The translations under genes and the position numbers were made by a program. Below, piece by piece: positions 9,090 through 29,360 of a stretch of DNA of 31,464 nt (the stretch's first letter is position 1; every line of letters starts with the position of its first letter). Source of the DNA: a virus; IMG/VR virus record IMGVR_UViG_3300028591_003415, positions 1-31,464 of that record. One strand, 5' to 3'. The notes under the pieces were generated by a model. The model searched no databases and had not been told where the DNA came from. It was given only the letters and a program-made list of their open reading frames with translations.

Positions 9090-9118
9090 ATTTTATCATA
9101 AAATTTTTGGAAAGTCAA
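9090..9118 (-). promoter_or_regulatory. Conserved phage promoter, minus-strand copy, driving the leftward operon 9058 to about 7084.
   Basis: Reverse complement reads TTGACT, 17 nt, TAAAAT, ATTTATAGTATAAAT, then AAAAGGAG. This is nearly identical to the promoter at 23708-23736. Confidence 0.5.
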
Positions 9119-9131
9119 GATTTTCTTATTA

Positions 9132-9160
9132 TTGATTATTATAAAAAAATATGATATAAT
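9132..9160 (+). promoter_or_regulatory. Conserved phage promoter: TTGATT, 17 nt, TGATATAAT, followed by the TTTTATAGAAAT box.
   Basis: Divergent partner of the 9090-9118 promoter. Same consensus as the 11 other copies. Confidence 0.55.
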
Positions 9161-9195
9161 TTTTATAGAAATAAAATAATAAAGGATTGATTATT

Positions 9196-9417
9196 TTGAA
9201 AAGATTTTATGTTAGTGTTCCAGTAGAGTATGTTATGGGGTATCTAAGGACAGGCCATTGGGAAGGTTATCTTGAAGCAGAAAATGAAAATGAAATTTTG
9301 GATATGCTGAATGGCCCAGATGGGATGGAAGGTCTTGATTTCTATGTTGATGATTATAGAGTAGAAGATATTGGAGATTCTATGATGGATTTGATTGAAA
9401 TCGAGGAAATGGAATAA
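9196..9417 (+). CDS. Small, very acidic protein of about 73 aa.
   Basis: AAAGGA lies 9 nt before TTG 9196. Product: ...EGYLEAENENEILDMLNGPDGMEGLDFYVDDYRVEDIGDSMMDLIEIEEME. Ends in TAA. Confidence 0.45.
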   Translation: MKRFYVSVPVEYVMGYLRTGHWEGYLEAENENEILDMLNGPDGMEGLDFYVDDYRVEDIGDSMMDLIEIEEME

Positions 9418-9596
9418 TGACTAAAAAATATCCTAAATGTAATCCTAATAATTGTGAATATTATACTCCCGATGGAGTGACTTTCGGGCTTTGTTTTCTT
9501 CACATATTTGAAGATGATACTATGGGATTTAGAAAATTAAACCAGGAGTGTGATATTGAAGAAGTCGTTCAATATCCAGAATTTAAAAGAAAATGA
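9417..9596 (+). CDS. Small Cys-containing protein of 59 aa, zinc-ribbon-like.
   Basis: ATG overlaps the upstream TAA. Contains CNPNNC...C..H. Ends in TGA, which overlaps the next ATG. The track misses it because it is under 60 aa. Confidence 0.4.
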   Translation: MTKKYPKCNPNNCEYYTPDGVTFGLCFLHIFEDDTMGFRKLNQECDIEEVVQYPEFKRK

Positions 9597-9970
9597 AAGT
9601 AATTATTGCAGGCGGACGAGATTTTAATAATTATAATGTACTTTGTGCCATTCTTAATTCAATGAGAAAACTTCCTATGTATTATGGCCCTAAACTTGAA
9701 GAAATAGTTAGTGGTGATGCAAAAGGCGCAGATACGCTTGGCTCTCATTGGGCAATTGAACATAATATTCCAGTTAAACATTTCCCCGCTGAATGGGATA
9801 AATATGGCAAAAATGCTGGATTTATTCGTAATGCTGAAATGGGAGAATACGCTGATGCCCTTATTGCTTTTTGGGATGGTAAAAGTAAAGGTACAAAACA
9901 TATGATACAAACTATGAAAATGAAAAAGAAACCTTGTTATGTGTTTAATTATAGAGGAGAACCAATATAA
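9593..9970 (+). CDS. DUF2493 / SLOG-family (YspA-like) protein, 125 aa.
   Basis: Product: MKVIIAGGRDF...GADTLG..WA...IP...PAEWDKYGKNAGFIRN...ADALIAFWDGKSKGTKHMI. Confidence 0.65.
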   Translation: MKVIIAGGRDFNNYNVLCAILNSMRKLPMYYGPKLEEIVSGDAKGADTLGSHWAIEHNIPVKHFPAEWDKYGKNAGFIRNAEMGEYADALIAFWDGKSKGTKHMIQTMKMKKKPCYVFNYRGEPI

Positions 9971-10131
9971 TGGATTAGTTTAAATTACCAGTAATTGAAA
10001 CATATAAAGCCGAAGCTTTAATAAAAGAAATCAGAGTTCATTTAAAAGATTATTCTATTGAGGAACTTGATGAACTATGTGATAAAAGTTTATTTTTTTT
10101 ATATACTCAATCATTTGATGCTTATGAATAA
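9970..10131 (+). CDS. Small protein of 53 aa with 1 in-frame TAG.
   Basis: TAATG overlap with the upstream gene. The frame is open to TAA 10129-10131 and is followed by the SD of the next gene. Confidence 0.35.
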
Positions 10132-10143
10132 AGGAGGAATAAA

Positions 10144-27199: not shown

Positions 27200-27390
27200 A
27201 AATTGAAATTTCTACTGGAACAACAATTTCTGATTTAGAATATATGTATACAGAAAACGATACAATGGAGTTGTGCCCTTGTGAAGATACTATCTATGAG
27301 CATGAAGGATATTATGATAGTATTGATGAAGCAATTGAAGCACTTCAATATCTTAAAATTTGTGAAGAAAGAGGAGATTTTGTGGAGTGA
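27196..27390 (+). CDS. Small acidic protein of 64 aa.
   Basis: Clean ORF. Ends in TGA. Confidence 0.45.
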   Translation: MKIEISTGTTISDLEYMYTENDTMELCPCEDTIYEHEGYYDSIDEAIEALQYLKICEERGDFVE

Positions 27391-27566
27391 ATTATCATGA
27401 TTATTGGATGCTTACTAAAGAATTGCCAGAGGATAAGGAATTAAAGAAATTAGTTAAATATAGTTGTTGTCCTAAATGTGTCTATGAAGGCACATGTCGC
27501 AGTTTTGACAAAGGAGACTGTACTAAATATAAACGCGATCCGCCTGATGGAGGATATTATGGATAA
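27387..27566 (+). CDS. Small Cys-rich protein of about 59 aa. The start is uncertain (GTG 27387 or ATG 27408).
   Basis: AAGAGGAG lies 12 nt before GTG. CCPKCVYEGTCRSFDKGDC. Ends in TAA 27564-27566. Confidence 0.35.
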   Translation: MNYHDYWMLTKELPEDKELKKLVKYSCCPKCVYEGTCRSFDKGDCTKYKRDPPDGGYYG

Positions 27567-27723
27567 AAATAATTAGTTGATAAAATTTAATATAGACTTT
27601 TGGCGAAAACATCCAGATTGGTTTATAGAAGAATTTTATGGAATTAAATTATTTAATTATCAAAAGATTTTTTTGAAAGGAATTGTAAATATAAAAAAAT
27701 GGTACATATCATTATTGCCATGA
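27559..27723 (+). CDS. 54-aa ORF resembling the N-terminal region of a terminase large subunit. It ends just before where the Walker A motif would be. Possibly a fragment or a 5' exon.
   Basis: GGAGGA SD lies 4 nt before ATG 27559. Product: MDKNNQLIKFNIDFWRKHPDWFIEEFYGIKLFNYQKIFLKGIVNIKKWYISLLP. Compare T4 gp17 ...[40 protein letters not shown], which is followed there by LSRQLGKTT. One TAG is read through. Stops at TGA 27721-27723. Confidence 0.35.
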
Positions 27724-27815
27724 CAATTCTAATTGCTACTTGTGTAGTATCTATTATTATTACTAATAGATTTTAATAAAAAAAATAAAAATTAAATATT
27801 AAAGGAGATAATGAA

Positions 27816-29207
27816 ATGTTCCCTATCGCATTGATTATTAAAATCGTTGTTTGTCTCGTTCTTCTTGCTCTGGTTGGGATCCTATGTAAAGCAAGCTATG
27901 TAAAGGCCCCGCCTGATATGGCTTATATTATTTCAGGACTTCACAAAAATCCTCGTATTCTTATCGGTAAGGCTGGTTTCAAAATCCCCTTCTTCGAGCG
28001 TTTGGACCAGTTGAGCCTTGGTGCTATCCAGATTGATGTAAAGACTGGTTCAGCAGTTCCAACAGCAGAGTATATCAATGTTCGTGTTGATAGTACCGTT
28101 TCTGTTCGTGTAAATCAGGCTCCTAATATGATTAACCTGGCAGCGCAGAACTTCCTCAATGTTGACCGTGATGAAATTGCACGAAAGATTAATGACCTTC
28201 TGGAAGGCAACATTCGTGAAATCGTTGGTCAGATGAAACTGACTGAAATGGTTAGCGACCGCAAGGCTTTTAGTGAAAAAGTGCAGGAGAATGCAGTGCC
28301 CGACCTTGCAAGATATGGTCTTGAACTCATTACTTTCAATGTCCAGAACTTTATGGACGAAGGCGATGTAATTTCTAATCTTGGTATTGATAATGTAGCA
28401 CAGATTAGTAAGAACGCAGCCATTGCCAAGAGTAATGCAGAACGTGAAATTGAGGTCGCAAAGGCTGAAAACGCAAAGCAGGCTAATGATGCCAAGGTAA
28501 AGGCCGCAGAAGAGATTGCCAAGCGTGATGCTGACCTTGCTGTTCGTCAGGCTGAATTGAAGCGTAACGTTGATACACAGAAGGCTCAGGCTGATGCTGC
28601 TATGGCGATTGAGGCTGAGAACCAGCGTAAGTTGAAAGACGTTGCTGCTACTGATGCTAATATTGCTAAGGCTGAGCGCGAAGCGGCTTTGAAGCAGAAG
28701 CAGATCGAGTTGAAGGAATATGAACTGGATGCTCTTGTTCGTAAGCAGGCTGATGCTGATAAGTATAAGGCTGAGAAGGAAGCAGAAGCGGCTCTTATTC
28801 GTCGTCAGAAGGATGCGGAAGCAAAGCGTTTCGAAATGGAACAGCAGGCTCTTGCCGTCAAAGCAAAGGCTGAAGCTGACCGTTATGCCGCAGAACAGCA
28901 GGCCGCTGGTATCATGGCTGTTGGTGAAGCAGAGGCTGCTGCCATTGAAAAAAAGGCAGAAGCGCAGAAGAAGATGGGCGATGCATCTATTATCGAAATG
29001 ACTTTGCAGAAGTTGCCTGAAATGATGGCATGCGCTGCGGCTCCTATGGAGAAGGCTGGCAATATCACTATTTATGGTGATGGCGGCGGCACTAAAATCG
29101 TTAAAGATGTTACTGCTATGAGTACTCAGATTATGAACGCTCTGAAGGATGCGGGAATTGATATCCAGAGTATTATTGCAAATGCTCTTAATGCTAATAA
29201 CAACTAA
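27816..29207 (+). CDS. Flotillin / SPFH (band-7) family protein, 463 aa.
   Basis: N-terminal transmembrane helix, an SPFH domain, and a long coiled coil with Ala/Glu repeats (AKAEREAALKQKQIELKEYELDAL...). The C-terminal region is flotillin-like. AAAGGAGA SD. No TAGs. Ends in TAA. Confidence 0.75.
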   Translation: MFPIALIIKIVVCLVLLALVGILCKASYVKAPPDMAYIISGLHKNPRILIGKAGFKIPFFERLDQLSLGAIQIDVKTGSAVPTAEYINVRVDSTVSVRVNQAPNMINLAAQNFLNVDRDEIARKINDLLEGNIREIVGQMKLTEMVSDRKAFSEKVQENAVPDLARYGLELITFNVQNFMDEGDVISNLGIDNVAQISKNAAIAKSNAEREIEVAKAENAKQANDAKVKAAEEIAKRDADLAVRQAELKRNVDTQKAQADAAMAIEAENQRKLKDVAATDANIAKAEREAALKQKQIELKEYELDALVRKQADADKYKAEKEAEAALIRRQKDAEAKRFEMEQQALAVKAKAEADRYAAEQQAAGIMAVGEAEAAAIEKKAEAQKKMGDASIIEMTLQKLPEMMACAAAPMEKAGNITIYGDGGGTKIVKDVTAMSTQIMNALKDAGIDIQSIIANALNANNN

Positions 29208-29225
29208 TTTTTTACCTTTCCTAAG

Positions 29226-29255
29226 ACGCCCCTTTTTATAAGGGGCGTTTTTTTG
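29226..29255 (+). terminator. Rho-independent terminator after the flotillin gene.
   Basis: ACGCCCCT ttttata AGGGGCGT, then TTTTTTT. Confidence 0.6.
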
Positions 29256-29331
29256 TTGAAAGTTACCGTGCGCGGCCGTGGTTTGAAATTCCGCGCCCAT
29301 AGGAAAAATTTTGGGGAAAACTTGTCTTTAC

Positions 29332-29360
29332 TTGATTTTCTTATTTTTTTATGCTATAAT
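29332..29360 (+). promoter_or_regulatory. Conserved phage promoter: TTGATT, 17 nt, TGCTATAAT, then ATTTATAGAAT.
   Basis: Spacer is exactly 17 nt. Confidence 0.5.

What the first reader, a model, noticed from the sequence alone, without database searches (positions are those of the whole stretch)
9090..29360. A single highly conserved promoter module reused at least 12 times, with an invariant downstream ATTATAGAAAA box.
Copies are at 9090-9118 (minus strand), 9132, 11384, 13951, 14916 (weak), 19292, 19817, 20745, 22493, 23708, 25036 and 29332. All share TTGAyT, exactly 17 nt, and (TGn)TATAAT. About 30 nt are nearly identical between copies (TTTTTATAAAAATATGATATAATTATTATAGAAAAT). The box immediately after the -10 (T/ATTATAGAAAA) is conserved beyond what a sigma-A promoter needs. 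That suggests a shared initiator or operator, or a site for a phage regulator that coordinates these units. Four copies sit directly against strong upstream terminators, giving insulated single-gene cassettes. Genes directly downstream of these promoters are almost all TAG-free. TAG-rich genes lie elsewhere.
Basis: seen in the sequence. Interest (0 to 1): 0.5.

Follow-up and report, generated by a model that had tools for sequence, protein, structure and literature searches.

The report
Repeated strong phage early-promoter cassette
A phage that reads the TAG stop codon as an amino acid carries eleven near-identical copies of a strong host-type promoter, and the extra conserved box after each one lies on the predicted transcription start point, so this is a tidy example of a known kind of phage early promoter, not a new regulatory site.

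Summary
Eleven copies (not twelve) of one module lie in intergenic DNA, each pointing at the gene downstream. The module is TTGnnn, exactly 17 nt, TAwAAT, three A/T bases, then an invariant TATAG followed by an A-run. The copy at 14916 fails.

The box is as conserved as the -35 and -10 hexamers. It is rare in a neutral sample of comparable phage promoter-like sites: 3 of 135, against 11 of 11 here.

The A of TATAG is the 7th base after the -10, the modal bacterial start position. T-1/A+1/G+2 matches the three published start-site preferences of bacterial RNA polymerase. A short, purine-rich, unstructured leader and a strong ribosome-binding site follow.

Relatives with 54-63% identical proteins keep the module at orthologous sites, although synonymous sites are near saturation. 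The same pattern precedes bacterial 6S RNA, tRNA and glycolytic genes in Bacillota.

Best reading: host sigma-A early promoters with an optimised start element, often fused to the preceding terminator. They resemble T4 early promoters, T4 PeSL cassettes and the SPO1 host-takeover module. An operator for a phage regulator is not supported, but it is not excluded.

The first gene after every copy is TAG-free. TAG-rich genes nevertheless occur further down some of the same units.

The parts
9078..9118 (-). Promoter module. -35 TTGACT 9118-9113, 17-nt spacer, -10 TAAAAT 9095-9090, ATT, TATAG 9086-9082 (predicted +1 = A 9083). It is divergent from the 9132 copy and drives genes 9058..7084.
   Evidence: (40.5 bits)
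9132..9172 (+). Promoter module. TTGATT-17-TATAAT-TTT-TATAGAAAT, predicted +1 at 9167. It drives 9187..11371 (5 genes, 0 TAG).
   Evidence: (49.9 bits)
11384..11424 (+). Promoter module, predicted +1 at 11419. It drives the single 815-aa major-vault-protein-like gene. The -35 overlaps the 3' end of the upstream hairpin.
   Evidence: (48.6 bits)
11351..11385 (+). Terminator-like hairpin abutting the 11384 promoter (-18.6 kcal/mol, z -4.9).
13910..13942 (+). Terminator hairpin with a T-run, 8 nt before the 13951 promoter (-20.6 kcal/mol, z -5.8).
13951..13991 (+). Promoter module, predicted +1 at 13986. It heads the unit 14021..19210.
   Evidence: 52.7 bits
14929..14945 (+). The claimed 'weak copy'. 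TATAAT is fused directly to ATAGAAAATA, there is no -35 and no TG. It lies upstream of a TAG-containing GIY-YIG endonuclease gene. It is not a module copy; at best it is a weak -10-only site.
   Evidence: (below 10 bits)
19229..19280 (+). Long hairpin before the 19292 promoter (whole structure -32.9 kcal/mol, z -7.8). It is homologous to the 19742-19817 hairpin.
19292..19332 (+). Promoter module, predicted +1 at 19327. Single-gene unit 19355-19738.
   Evidence: 51.3 bits
19742..19817 (+). 34-bp-stem hairpin (-52.1 kcal/mol, z -13.2). Its 3' arm and T-run run into the -35 of the 19817 promoter.
19817..19857 (+). Promoter module (TTGACA-17-TATAAT, 12/12 to consensus), predicted +1 at 19852. Single-gene unit 19885-20718.
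   Evidence: 39.3 bits
20717..20749 (+). Terminator hairpin. Its 3' arm supplies the -35 (cTTGTTT) and its T-run is the start of the spacer of the 20745 promoter.
   Evidence: z -7.3
20745..20785 (+). Promoter module, predicted +1 at 20780. It drives 20810-22458.
   Evidence: 50.6 bits
22463..22499 (+). Terminator hairpin. Its 3' arm contains the -35 TTGATT of the 22493 promoter. Relatives show compensatory changes in the stem.
   Evidence: (z -8.3)
22493..22533 (+). Promoter module (best-scoring copy), predicted +1 at 22528. It drives the PurA/PurZ-like gene. It is conserved 40/41 and 36/41 at the orthologous site in L121 and L124.
   Evidence: (53.5 bits)
23708..23748 (+). Promoter module (TTGACT-17-TAAAAT-ATT-TATAGTAAA), predicted +1 at 23743. 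There is no upstream hairpin.
   Evidence: (48.8 bits)
25036..25076 (+). Promoter module whose -35 (TTGAAA) contains the stop codon of the upstream gene. Predicted +1 at 25071, 13-nt leader. It heads the unit 25084..29207.
   Evidence: (49.0 bits)
29223..29251 (+). Terminator hairpin ending the 25036 unit, about 80 nt before the 29332 promoter.
   Evidence: z -5.1
29332..29372 (+). Promoter module with an atypical spacer (TTCTTATTTTTTTATGC), predicted +1 at 29367. The same odd spacer is kept at the orthologous site in L121 (37/41).
   Evidence: (35.6 bits)
6401..6481 (-). Looser relative of the module. Terminator hairpin 6481-6454, then TTGACA (6441-6436), 17 nt ending TATGT, TATACT (6418-6413), then TATAATATAAAAA. 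It matches the module consensus at 24/41. It leads into TAG-containing genes 6369..2865.

Best explanation
These are eleven copies of one strong promoter cassette read by the host's primary-sigma (sigma-A / sigma-70 type) RNA polymerase. Most likely they are the phage's early promoters.

The recognition elements are:
- a -35 of TTGAyT;
- an A/T-only 17-bp spacer (a T-run, then an A-run) that ends in the Gram-positive '-16' TRTG motif;
- a -10 of TATAAT.

The 'extra' box is the start-site region, not a protein operator. It consists of three A/T bases of discriminator, then T-3 A-2 T-1 A+1 G+2. This places a purine start exactly 7 bp after the -10, with a pyrimidine at -1 and G at +2. Those are the positions that RNA polymerase itself reads when it chooses a start.

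The A-run that follows begins a 13-35 nt purine-rich, almost C-free, unstructured leader. The leader ends in a strong, extended Shine-Dalgarno sequence.

In six copies the cassette is fused to the preceding intrinsic terminator. The hairpin's 3' arm and U-tract double as the -35 and the T-run of the spacer, so one unit ends where the next begins.

The near-identical cassettes also behave as recombination points at which gene cassettes are exchanged between related phages.

Promoter-proximal genes avoid TAG, so they can be translated before the phage's TAG-reading machinery is in place.

Shown: the copies, their significance, their geometry, purifying selection on them, the terminator fusion and the TAG pattern.
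Inferred: use by host RNA polymerase, the start position, early timing and the reason for the TAG pattern.
For: - Copies and significance.
- TATAG is invariant and as informative as the -10 and -35.
- The A of TATAG is the 7th nt after the -10 in all 11 copies. PMC5730371 lists the start-site determinants: the 7-bp position, purine at the start, pyrimidine at -1, and nontemplate G just after the start (the core recognition element).
- In other contigs carrying the motif, non-seed TTGAnn-17-TATAAT sites show T (0.7) at position 6, A/G (0.93) at 7, G/T at 8 and A at 9-10.
- Leaders are 13-35 nt, 64-87% purine, hold 2 C in about 290 nt, and fold at about 0 kcal/mol.
- Purifying selection: orthologous modules are 34-40/41 identical to L121 and 24-36/41 to L124. 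Four-fold third positions of the flanking orthologous genes are only 25-62% identical. The neighbouring hairpin changes by compensatory substitutions.
- The same pattern lies upstream of 6S RNA in three Ruminococcus genomes, a tRNA, and fba, pyk and deoD-like genes. About 85% of 120 bacterial hits are gut or rumen Bacillota.
- Terminator fusion.
- Cassette exchange: the homolog of the gene after P25036 sits, with the same leader, after the PurZ-gene promoter in L121.
- TAG pattern.
- Gene content of the units is nucleotide and RNA metabolism plus many small ORFs, typical of early and middle genes.
Against: - There are no transcript data. The start site, the polymerase used and the timing are all inferred.
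- The box is not a general property of sigma-70-type phage promoters (3/135). Polymerase preference alone does not explain why it is invariant here.
- The start-site rules come from E. coli polymerase, not from the unknown host.
- Host examples were found by searching for the pattern, so they show compatibility, not enrichment.
- The strong conservation of the spacer, including a copy-specific odd spacer kept in L121, exceeds what is usually ascribed to spacers. It could reflect an additional bound factor.
- TAG-rich genes lie inside some of these units, and a sigma-A-like promoter also precedes TAG-containing genes at 6441(-). The early/late split is therefore not clean.
- If the PurZ-like gene means that adenine is replaced in virion DNA, recognition by host polymerase may differ from the textbook case.
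Confidence: 0.7

Rival explanations
1. The box, or the palindromic spacer TTTTTATAAAAA, is an operator for a phage-encoded regulator. That regulator would switch all units off or on together, for example to shut off early transcription.
For: - The box is far more uniform here than in comparable promoters elsewhere (11/11 against 3/135).
- The spacer is under purifying selection across relatives.
- TATAAT-T-ATTATA and TTTTTATAAAAA are palindromes in some copies.
Against: - TATAG has no symmetric partner.
- The -10 palindrome is perfect in only 5 of 11 copies, and the spacer palindrome shifts by 1 nt between copies.
- Relatives keep the module but relax the box to TATRK.
- The same -10 plus box precedes bacterial 6S RNA, tRNA and glycolytic genes.
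- No DNA-binding domain was found in the suggested RHH-like protein.
Confidence: 0.12
2. The conserved bases act in the RNA. Every early mRNA would begin 5'-AGAAAA. This sets its fate through 5'-end-dependent decay (Bacillus RppH prefers G at position 2; from memory), through non-canonical capping of A-initiated RNAs, or through leader-dependent translation.
For: - The invariant A+1 G+2 and the A-run would be the first transcribed bases in all 11 units.
- The leaders are uniformly purine-rich and unstructured.
Against: - T-3 A-2 T-1 are equally invariant but would not be transcribed.
- The same box precedes stable RNAs (6S RNA, tRNA) whose 5' ends are processed.
- There is no direct evidence for any of these mechanisms here.
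Confidence: 0.1
3. The box is the -10 of a second, overlapping promoter. It would be used by an alternative or phage-encoded sigma factor (a sigma-H-like -10 is RnnGAAT), or by a phage RNA polymerase (T7-type promoters end in TATAG).
For: - C. difficile sigma-H promoters listed in PMC7438776 have -10 regions such as ATATAGAAAT and TTATAGAATT. These resemble TATAGAAAT and TATAGAAT in the 9132 and 29332 copies.
Against: - No AGGA-type -35 lies 11-14 nt upstream, where the sequence is ATATGATATAAT.
- Most copies read GAAAAT or GTAAAT, not GAAT.
- No sigma factor or RNA polymerase gene was recognised among the window proteins scanned.
- Apart from TATAG there is no similarity to T7-type promoters.
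Confidence: 0.04
4. The repeats exist mainly as recombination substrates, or as the product of recent duplication and gene conversion, and not because every base is functional.
For: - Four copies share a 36-mer with 3 or fewer mismatches.
- The two hairpins at 19229 and 19742 are homologous.
- A gene with its leader has moved from one module to another between the window and L121.
Against: - Orthologous copies keep their individual quirks across phages whose synonymous sites are near saturation. That indicates vertical descent under selection, not homogenisation.
- Similarity stops at the module borders.
- Recombination is better seen as a consequence of the promoter function than as an alternative to it.
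Confidence: 0.15

Closest known systems
Bacteriophage T4 early promoters (Pe)
   Same: Many copies of a host-sigma-70 promoter with excellent -35, TGn and -10 elements, plus additional regions of consensus beyond those elements. They are active at once on host polymerase and out-compete host promoters (PMC2988021).
   Different: The host type is different (the pattern here is Gram-positive, with TRTG). No clear UP element is seen here. The extra consensus lies on the start site and in the spacer. There is no evidence for an Alt-like modifier.
PeSL (promoter-early stem-loop) cassettes of T4-like phages
   Same: Small composite terminator/promoter sequences repeated between early genes. They act as points of exchange for gene cassettes (PMC2839356, PMC4122927). 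Here six copies are hairpin-promoter fusions, and one gene has moved between modules relative to L121.
   Different: The phage lineage and host phylum are unrelated. Here the hairpin's 3' arm and U-tract literally provide the -35 and the start of the spacer. Recombination is inferred from one relocation and a few indels, not demonstrated.
SPO1 host-takeover module (Bacillus subtilis phage)
   Same: A cluster of mostly small early genes in many short operons. Each has promoters and ribosome-binding sites typical of highly expressed genes and is read by host sigma-A polymerase (PMC6873191; PMC13401047 abstract).
   Different: There is no detectable sequence relationship. The genes here include large enzymes and structural-looking proteins. 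An invariant start-site box has not been described for SPO1, to my knowledge.
Start-site determinants of bacterial RNA polymerase (Y-1/R+1, core recognition element G+2, discriminator)
   Same: T-1 A+1 G+2 at 7 bp from the -10 is exactly the preferred configuration (PMC5730371).
   Different: Those are statistical preferences measured for E. coli polymerase. Here they are fixed in every copy and embedded in a longer conserved TATAG-A-run.
Phage T5 early promoters (e.g. PN25) with a conserved transcribed region
   Same: From memory, not checked here: very strong sigma-70 promoters with A/T-rich spacers. Their initial transcribed sequence (ATAAAT...) contributes to strength.
   Different: The sequence and host are different. 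This comparison rests on recollection only.

Membership tests
Primary-sigma (sigma-70 / sigma-A) -35/-10 promoter | -35 close to TTGACA and -10 close to TATAAT, separated by 17 +/- 1 bp | tested here: met
   All 11 copies have TTGnnn (8 are TTGAyT), exactly 17 bp, and TATAAT or TAAAAT.
Primary-sigma (sigma-70 / sigma-A) -35/-10 promoter | Extended -10 / Gram-positive -16 TRTG motif | tested here: met
   TAT at -17..-15 is invariant. TATG occurs in 7 of 11 copies; the others read TATT or TATA.
Primary-sigma (sigma-70 / sigma-A) -35/-10 promoter | Intergenic position, co-oriented with a downstream gene that has a ribosome-binding site | tested here: met
   11 of 11, with leaders of 13-35 nt and an AAGGA/GGAG-type SD.
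Primary-sigma (sigma-70 / sigma-A) -35/-10 promoter | Transcripts start 6-9 bp after the -10 and depend on host holoenzyme | not testable with these tools
   This needs 5'-end mapping or in vitro transcription.
Phage early promoter class | Active immediately after infection, without phage protein synthesis | not testable with these tools
   Inferred from the host-consensus match, the gene content and the TAG-free proximal genes.
PeSL-type composite terminator/promoter cassette | A stem-loop terminator immediately followed by, or overlapping, an early promoter, repeated between genes | tested here: met
   Six of 11 copies do this (z -4.9 to -13.2). In four of them the -35 overlaps the 3' arm or its end (20745, 22493, 11384, 19817).
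PeSL-type composite terminator/promoter cassette | Cassettes mark the borders of indels or gene swaps between related phages | tested here: inconclusive
   One gene with its leader has relocated between modules (window 25084-25281 against L121 1586-1795). Several gene gains and losses lie near modules. Only three partial relatives were available.
PeSL-type composite terminator/promoter cassette | Belongs to T4-like myoviruses | not tested
   No hallmark T4 genes were seen in the window. The resemblance is functional, not phylogenetic.
Operator of a dimeric repressor | Dyad symmetry at a fixed register in all copies | tested here: not met
   TATAG has no partner. The -10 palindrome is perfect in 5 of 11 copies. 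The spacer palindrome shifts register.
Operator of a dimeric repressor | A cognate DNA-binding protein that binds the site | not testable with these tools
   The proposed RHH-like ORF 6070-6369 has no Pfam hit. EMSA would be needed.
Sigma-H-type promoter | -35 RnAGGAwWW, 11-12 bp, -10 RnnGAAT | tested here: not met
   No AGGA lies at the required distance. GAAT is present in only 1 of 11 copies.

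The most novel reading that the evidence does not exclude
The invariant T-3A-2T-1A+1G+2 box, together with the selected T-run/A-run spacer, could be a lineage-specific initiator signal shared by a large group of uncultured 100-200 kb phages of gut Bacillota. It would be read by something more than bare host polymerase. 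Candidates are a virion-delivered polymerase modifier, a shut-off factor, or a 5'-end (AG...) RNA-fate mechanism. It would mark the immediate-early, standard-code gene set of stop-codon-recoded phages.
Probability: 0.12. Interest if true: 0.6.

Novelty: new member of a known kind. Interest (0 to 1): 0.3.

Why it matters
The module gives a simple sequence signature for finding the probable early transcription units of an uncultured phage that reads TAG as an amino acid, and of its relatives.

It supports the idea that such phages keep the first-translated genes in the standard code. It also refines that idea: TAG density rises with distance from the promoter within an operon (0, 0, 0, 1, 9 in the 9118(-) unit). 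This suggests gating by translation within a transcript, not by separate promoters.

The terminator-promoter fusion and the fixed start-site context are compact, portable expression parts for gut Bacillota.

None of this changes how phage transcription is understood.

Tried and rejected
- Near-identity DNA search of the window against cultured phages found nothing useful. No cultured relative with transcript data is available.
- Rfam and tRNA scans of the window found nothing, so no RNA element explains the box.
- A literature search for the box sequence found only the C. difficile sigma-H promoter list. I considered and rejected that link because no sigma-H -35 is present.
- A search for papers linking recoding to early promoters found none. 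The Borges et al. paper itself was not held.
- I first took the 'second upstream element' AAATTTTTGGnAAAG for a second motif. It is the arm of terminator hairpins, or the reverse complement of the divergent 9118 promoter.
- I first thought the box was a general feature of Bacillota phage promoters, from loci that had been fetched with the box itself. A neutral sample corrected this (3/135).
- Looking up the window's own contig gave only 1-4 kb fragments at 98.7% identity.
- An attempt to infer the amino acid encoded by TAG from PhoH homologs was inconclusive.
- A test of whether other box-rich contigs are related to this phage was inconclusive, because the fetched stretches are short.
- A PDB sequence search could not separate PurZ from PurA for gene 22554-23705.

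Full report
**Context**

The window is A/T-rich (about 33% G+C). Its genes diverge around 9060-9190: minus strand to the left, plus strand to the right. Many long reading frames close only if TAG is read as sense. No gene in my list ends in TAG. This is therefore a stop-codon-recoded phage. No cultured phage is close at the DNA level. Relatives found through the adenylosuccinate-synthetase-like protein come from IMG/VR contigs of 165-205 kb.

Yes.
- The strict pattern TTGAYT-N17-TATAAT occurs 6 times against 0.07 expected.
- Aligning the claimed sites and scoring the window with a 41-column weight matrix built from them gives 11 sites at 35.6-53.5 bits. The next site scores 16 bits. The maximum in 200 first-order Markov randomisations is 14 bits. 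Scoring the training sites is circular, but the gap is large and one search is independent.
- Column by column, TTG of the -35, TAT at -17..-15, five of six -10 positions and the pentamer TATAG at positions +4..+8 after the -10 are invariant in 11 of 11 copies.
- TATAG carries about 9 bits, the same as the -10 or the -35.

The 12th claimed copy (14916) fails. Its TATAAT is fused to ATAGAAAA, 3 nt short, and the -35 position reads TAACTC.

Several details need correcting:
- The -35 is TTGAyT in 8 of 11 copies.
- TGn is present in 7 of 11.
- The 11-mer ATTATAGAAAA is exact in 4 copies.
- The quoted 36-mer occurs with 3 or fewer mismatches in 4 copies.

A looser relative of the module lies on the minus strand at 6441-6401, again behind a terminator.

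**Is the box more than a sigma-A promoter needs?**

Yes, in this phage. I fetched a neutral sample of strong sites from IMG/VR with a pattern that says nothing about the downstream bases (TTGACT-14-TGn-TATAAT). Of 135 sites, 3 have TATAG at that position, against 11 of 11 here. The chance expectation from base composition is about 0.2%.

My earlier impression that the box is common came from loci fetched with the box itself. It holds only for a subset of contigs, several of which carry 3-7 copies with quite different spacers.

**What the box is**

In every copy the A of TATAG is the 7th base after the -10. For bacterial RNA polymerase the modal start is 7 bp after the -10. There is a strong preference for a purine at the start, a pyrimidine just before it, and a nontemplate G just after it (the core recognition element) (PMC5730371). 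T-1 A+1 G+2 satisfies all three.

In the box-containing contigs, other TTGAnn-17-TATAAT sites show the same logic in relaxed form: T at position 6 (0.7), A or G at 7 (0.93), G/T at 8, A at 9-10. The more distant relative L127 keeps the -35, spacer and -10 but relaxes the box to TATAG, TATGT or TATAT.

From the predicted +1, the leaders are 13-35 nt and 64-87% purine. They contain 2 C in about 290 nt and have essentially no predicted structure. They end in AAAGGA(G)/GGTGAT-type ribosome-binding sites.

The whole unit reads as an optimised expression cassette. It has a consensus -35, an A/T spacer ending in the Gram-positive TRTG motif, a consensus -10, a fixed start, an unstructured leader and a strong Shine-Dalgarno sequence.

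**Selection**

At orthologous positions in L121 and L124 the modules are 34-40/41 and 24-36/41 identical. The proteins are 55-83% identical across the gene pairs compared. Four-fold degenerate third positions of the flanking genes are only 25-62% identical, near saturation for this composition.

Upstream of the PurZ-like gene the promoter is almost unchanged in three phages, while the adjoining hairpin changes by compensatory substitutions. Copy-specific quirks are inherited: the odd spacer TTCTTATTTTTTT of the 29332 copy is present at the orthologous L121 site. This points to vertical descent under purifying selection, spacer included, and not to recent homogenisation.

**Who reads it**

Nothing in the window resembles a sigma factor or an RNA polymerase among the proteins scanned.

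The full pattern (-35, 17 bp, -10, N3, TATAGAAA) was found in 120 or more bacterial contigs. About 85% are gut or rumen Bacillota. Many are probably binned phage DNA, but some are clearly cellular:
- 6S RNA in Ruminococcus flavefaciens YL228 and two Ruminococcus MAGs, where the spacers differ but the -35, -10 and TATAGAAAA are conserved;
- a tRNA pair in an Anaerolineae MAG;
- class II fructose-bisphosphate aldolase, pyruvate kinase and a purine-nucleoside-phosphorylase-like gene, with 23-30 nt leaders.

Because I searched for the pattern, this shows that cellular genes use the same arrangement without any phage factor. It does not show that the pattern is enriched.

**Terminator fusion and cassette behaviour**

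Six copies directly abut a hairpin that folds far better than shuffles (z -4.9 to -13.2). In four copies (20745, 22493, 11384 and 19817) the 3' arm or its end supplies part of the -35. The terminator's T-run is the start of the spacer. A seventh copy has a terminator about 80 nt upstream.

Comparison with L121 shows one clean relocation. The small gene that follows P25036 in the window sits in L121 directly after the PurZ-gene promoter. It has the same 13-14 nt leader and lies between that promoter and the PurZ-like gene. Other gains and losses also lie next to modules, such as the flotillin-like gene absent from L124 and extra small ORFs.

This matches the description of PeSL terminator/promoter cassettes in T4-like phages (PMC2839356, PMC4122927). 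The evidence here is thin.

**TAG and the promoters**

The first gene after each of the 11 promoters has no TAG. That is 2,574 codons in all; at gene level the hypergeometric P is 0.02. This fits the published suggestion that recoding regulates late genes (cited in PMC11210395).

The partition is not by transcription unit:
- The 9118(-) operon runs 0, 0, 0, 1, 9 TAG codons from the proximal to the distal gene. The dUTPase and the RuvC-like genes overlap.
- Two endonuclease-like genes with 5 and 14 TAG sit inside the 13951 unit.
- The PhoH-like gene (8 TAG) is third after P29332.
- TAG-containing genes at 6369-2865 have their own sigma-A-like promoter.

**Rivals**

- An operator for a phage regulator is not supported. 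There is no dyad for TATAG. The spacer palindrome changes register. The box relaxes in relatives. Cellular genes use the same box. The suggested RHH-like ORF has no recognisable domain. The unusual uniformity of the box and the selection on the spacer keep this reading alive at low probability.
- A sigma-H-like second promoter was suggested by the C. difficile list in PMC7438776. It fails for lack of the AGGA -35.
- An RNA-level role for 5'-AGAAAA cannot be excluded. It does not explain the equally invariant untranscribed TAT.

**Verdict**

This is a well-defined family of host-type, probably early, phage promoters with a fixed start-site element. The promoters are often fused to the preceding terminator. 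They are a new member of a known kind, closest to T4 early promoters and PeSLs and to the SPO1 host-takeover module (PMC2988021; PMC6873191). Of its interpretations, 'initiator' is the one the evidence favours.

Noticed in passing
whole window; e.g. 3732-6077(-), 7084-7575(-), 17039-18055(+), 30088-31386(+): TAG is read as sense. Long ORFs close only if TAG is not a stop, and none of about 52 genes ends in TAG. There is no suppressor tRNA in the window. The amino acid could not be inferred: in PhoH homologs the TAG positions align with E, Y, Q, D and others.
   Followed up: partly
9058..7084 (-): Within the single operon behind the 9118(-) promoter, TAG codons per gene run 0, 0, 0, 1, 9 from the proximal to the distal gene. 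The last two genes (dUTPase and RuvC-like) overlap. This suggests translational gating within one transcript.
   Followed up: partly
22554-23705 (+): A divergent adenylosuccinate-synthetase-like gene matches phrog_1211, annotated as the PurZ-type enzyme of 2-aminoadenine (Z) genomes (E 1e-30). Pfam and PDB give only weak PurA similarity. If it is PurZ, the A's of these promoters may be Z in virion DNA.
   Followed up: partly
11449-13896 (+) and 27816-29207 (+): An 815-aa protein with major-vault-protein shoulder and repeat domains has 41-43% identical homologs in the 462-735 kb 'huge phage' records LR756500/501/503. A flotillin/SPFH-family protein is also present. Each is the first or the last gene of a module-driven unit.
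   Followed up: no
3732-6077 (-) and 2865-3701 (-): A radical-SAM/SPASM enzyme is interrupted by an intein-like insertion (Hint and LAGLIDADG domains). It is followed by a 278-aa ORF whose C-terminal half is a dense array of Cys-x3-Cys repeats. This may be a maturase-substrate pair.
   Followed up: partly
14021-14608, 14966-15730, 17039-18055 (+): Three endonuclease-like genes are clustered around the RNA ligase gene: HNH, GIY-YIG with HTH domains, and a zinc-ribbon-repeat protein with a DUF2726 domain. The last two are the most TAG-dense genes of the plus-strand block. GIY-YIG homologs recur in many other contigs that carry the promoter box.
   Followed up: no
15711-16985, 25984-26460, 10144-10989, 24290-25039, 26621-27199 (+): An RNA ligase, a P-loop kinase (AAA_33) and three calcineurin-like phosphoesterases together look like an RNA-repair set. 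All are TAG-free.
   Followed up: no
L185 (contig CALGTV010000065.1, 182 kb, binned as Ruminococcus): An 8-kb stretch carries 17 tRNA genes and a tmRNA, interspersed with the same promoter-plus-box module. It is probably a large phage contig binned with a bacterial genome.
   Followed up: no
19229-19280 and 19742-19817 (+): Two unusually long, mutually homologous hairpins (up to a 34-bp stem, -52 kcal/mol) flank the single-gene unit 19355-19738. They are much longer than an intrinsic terminator needs.
   Followed up: no
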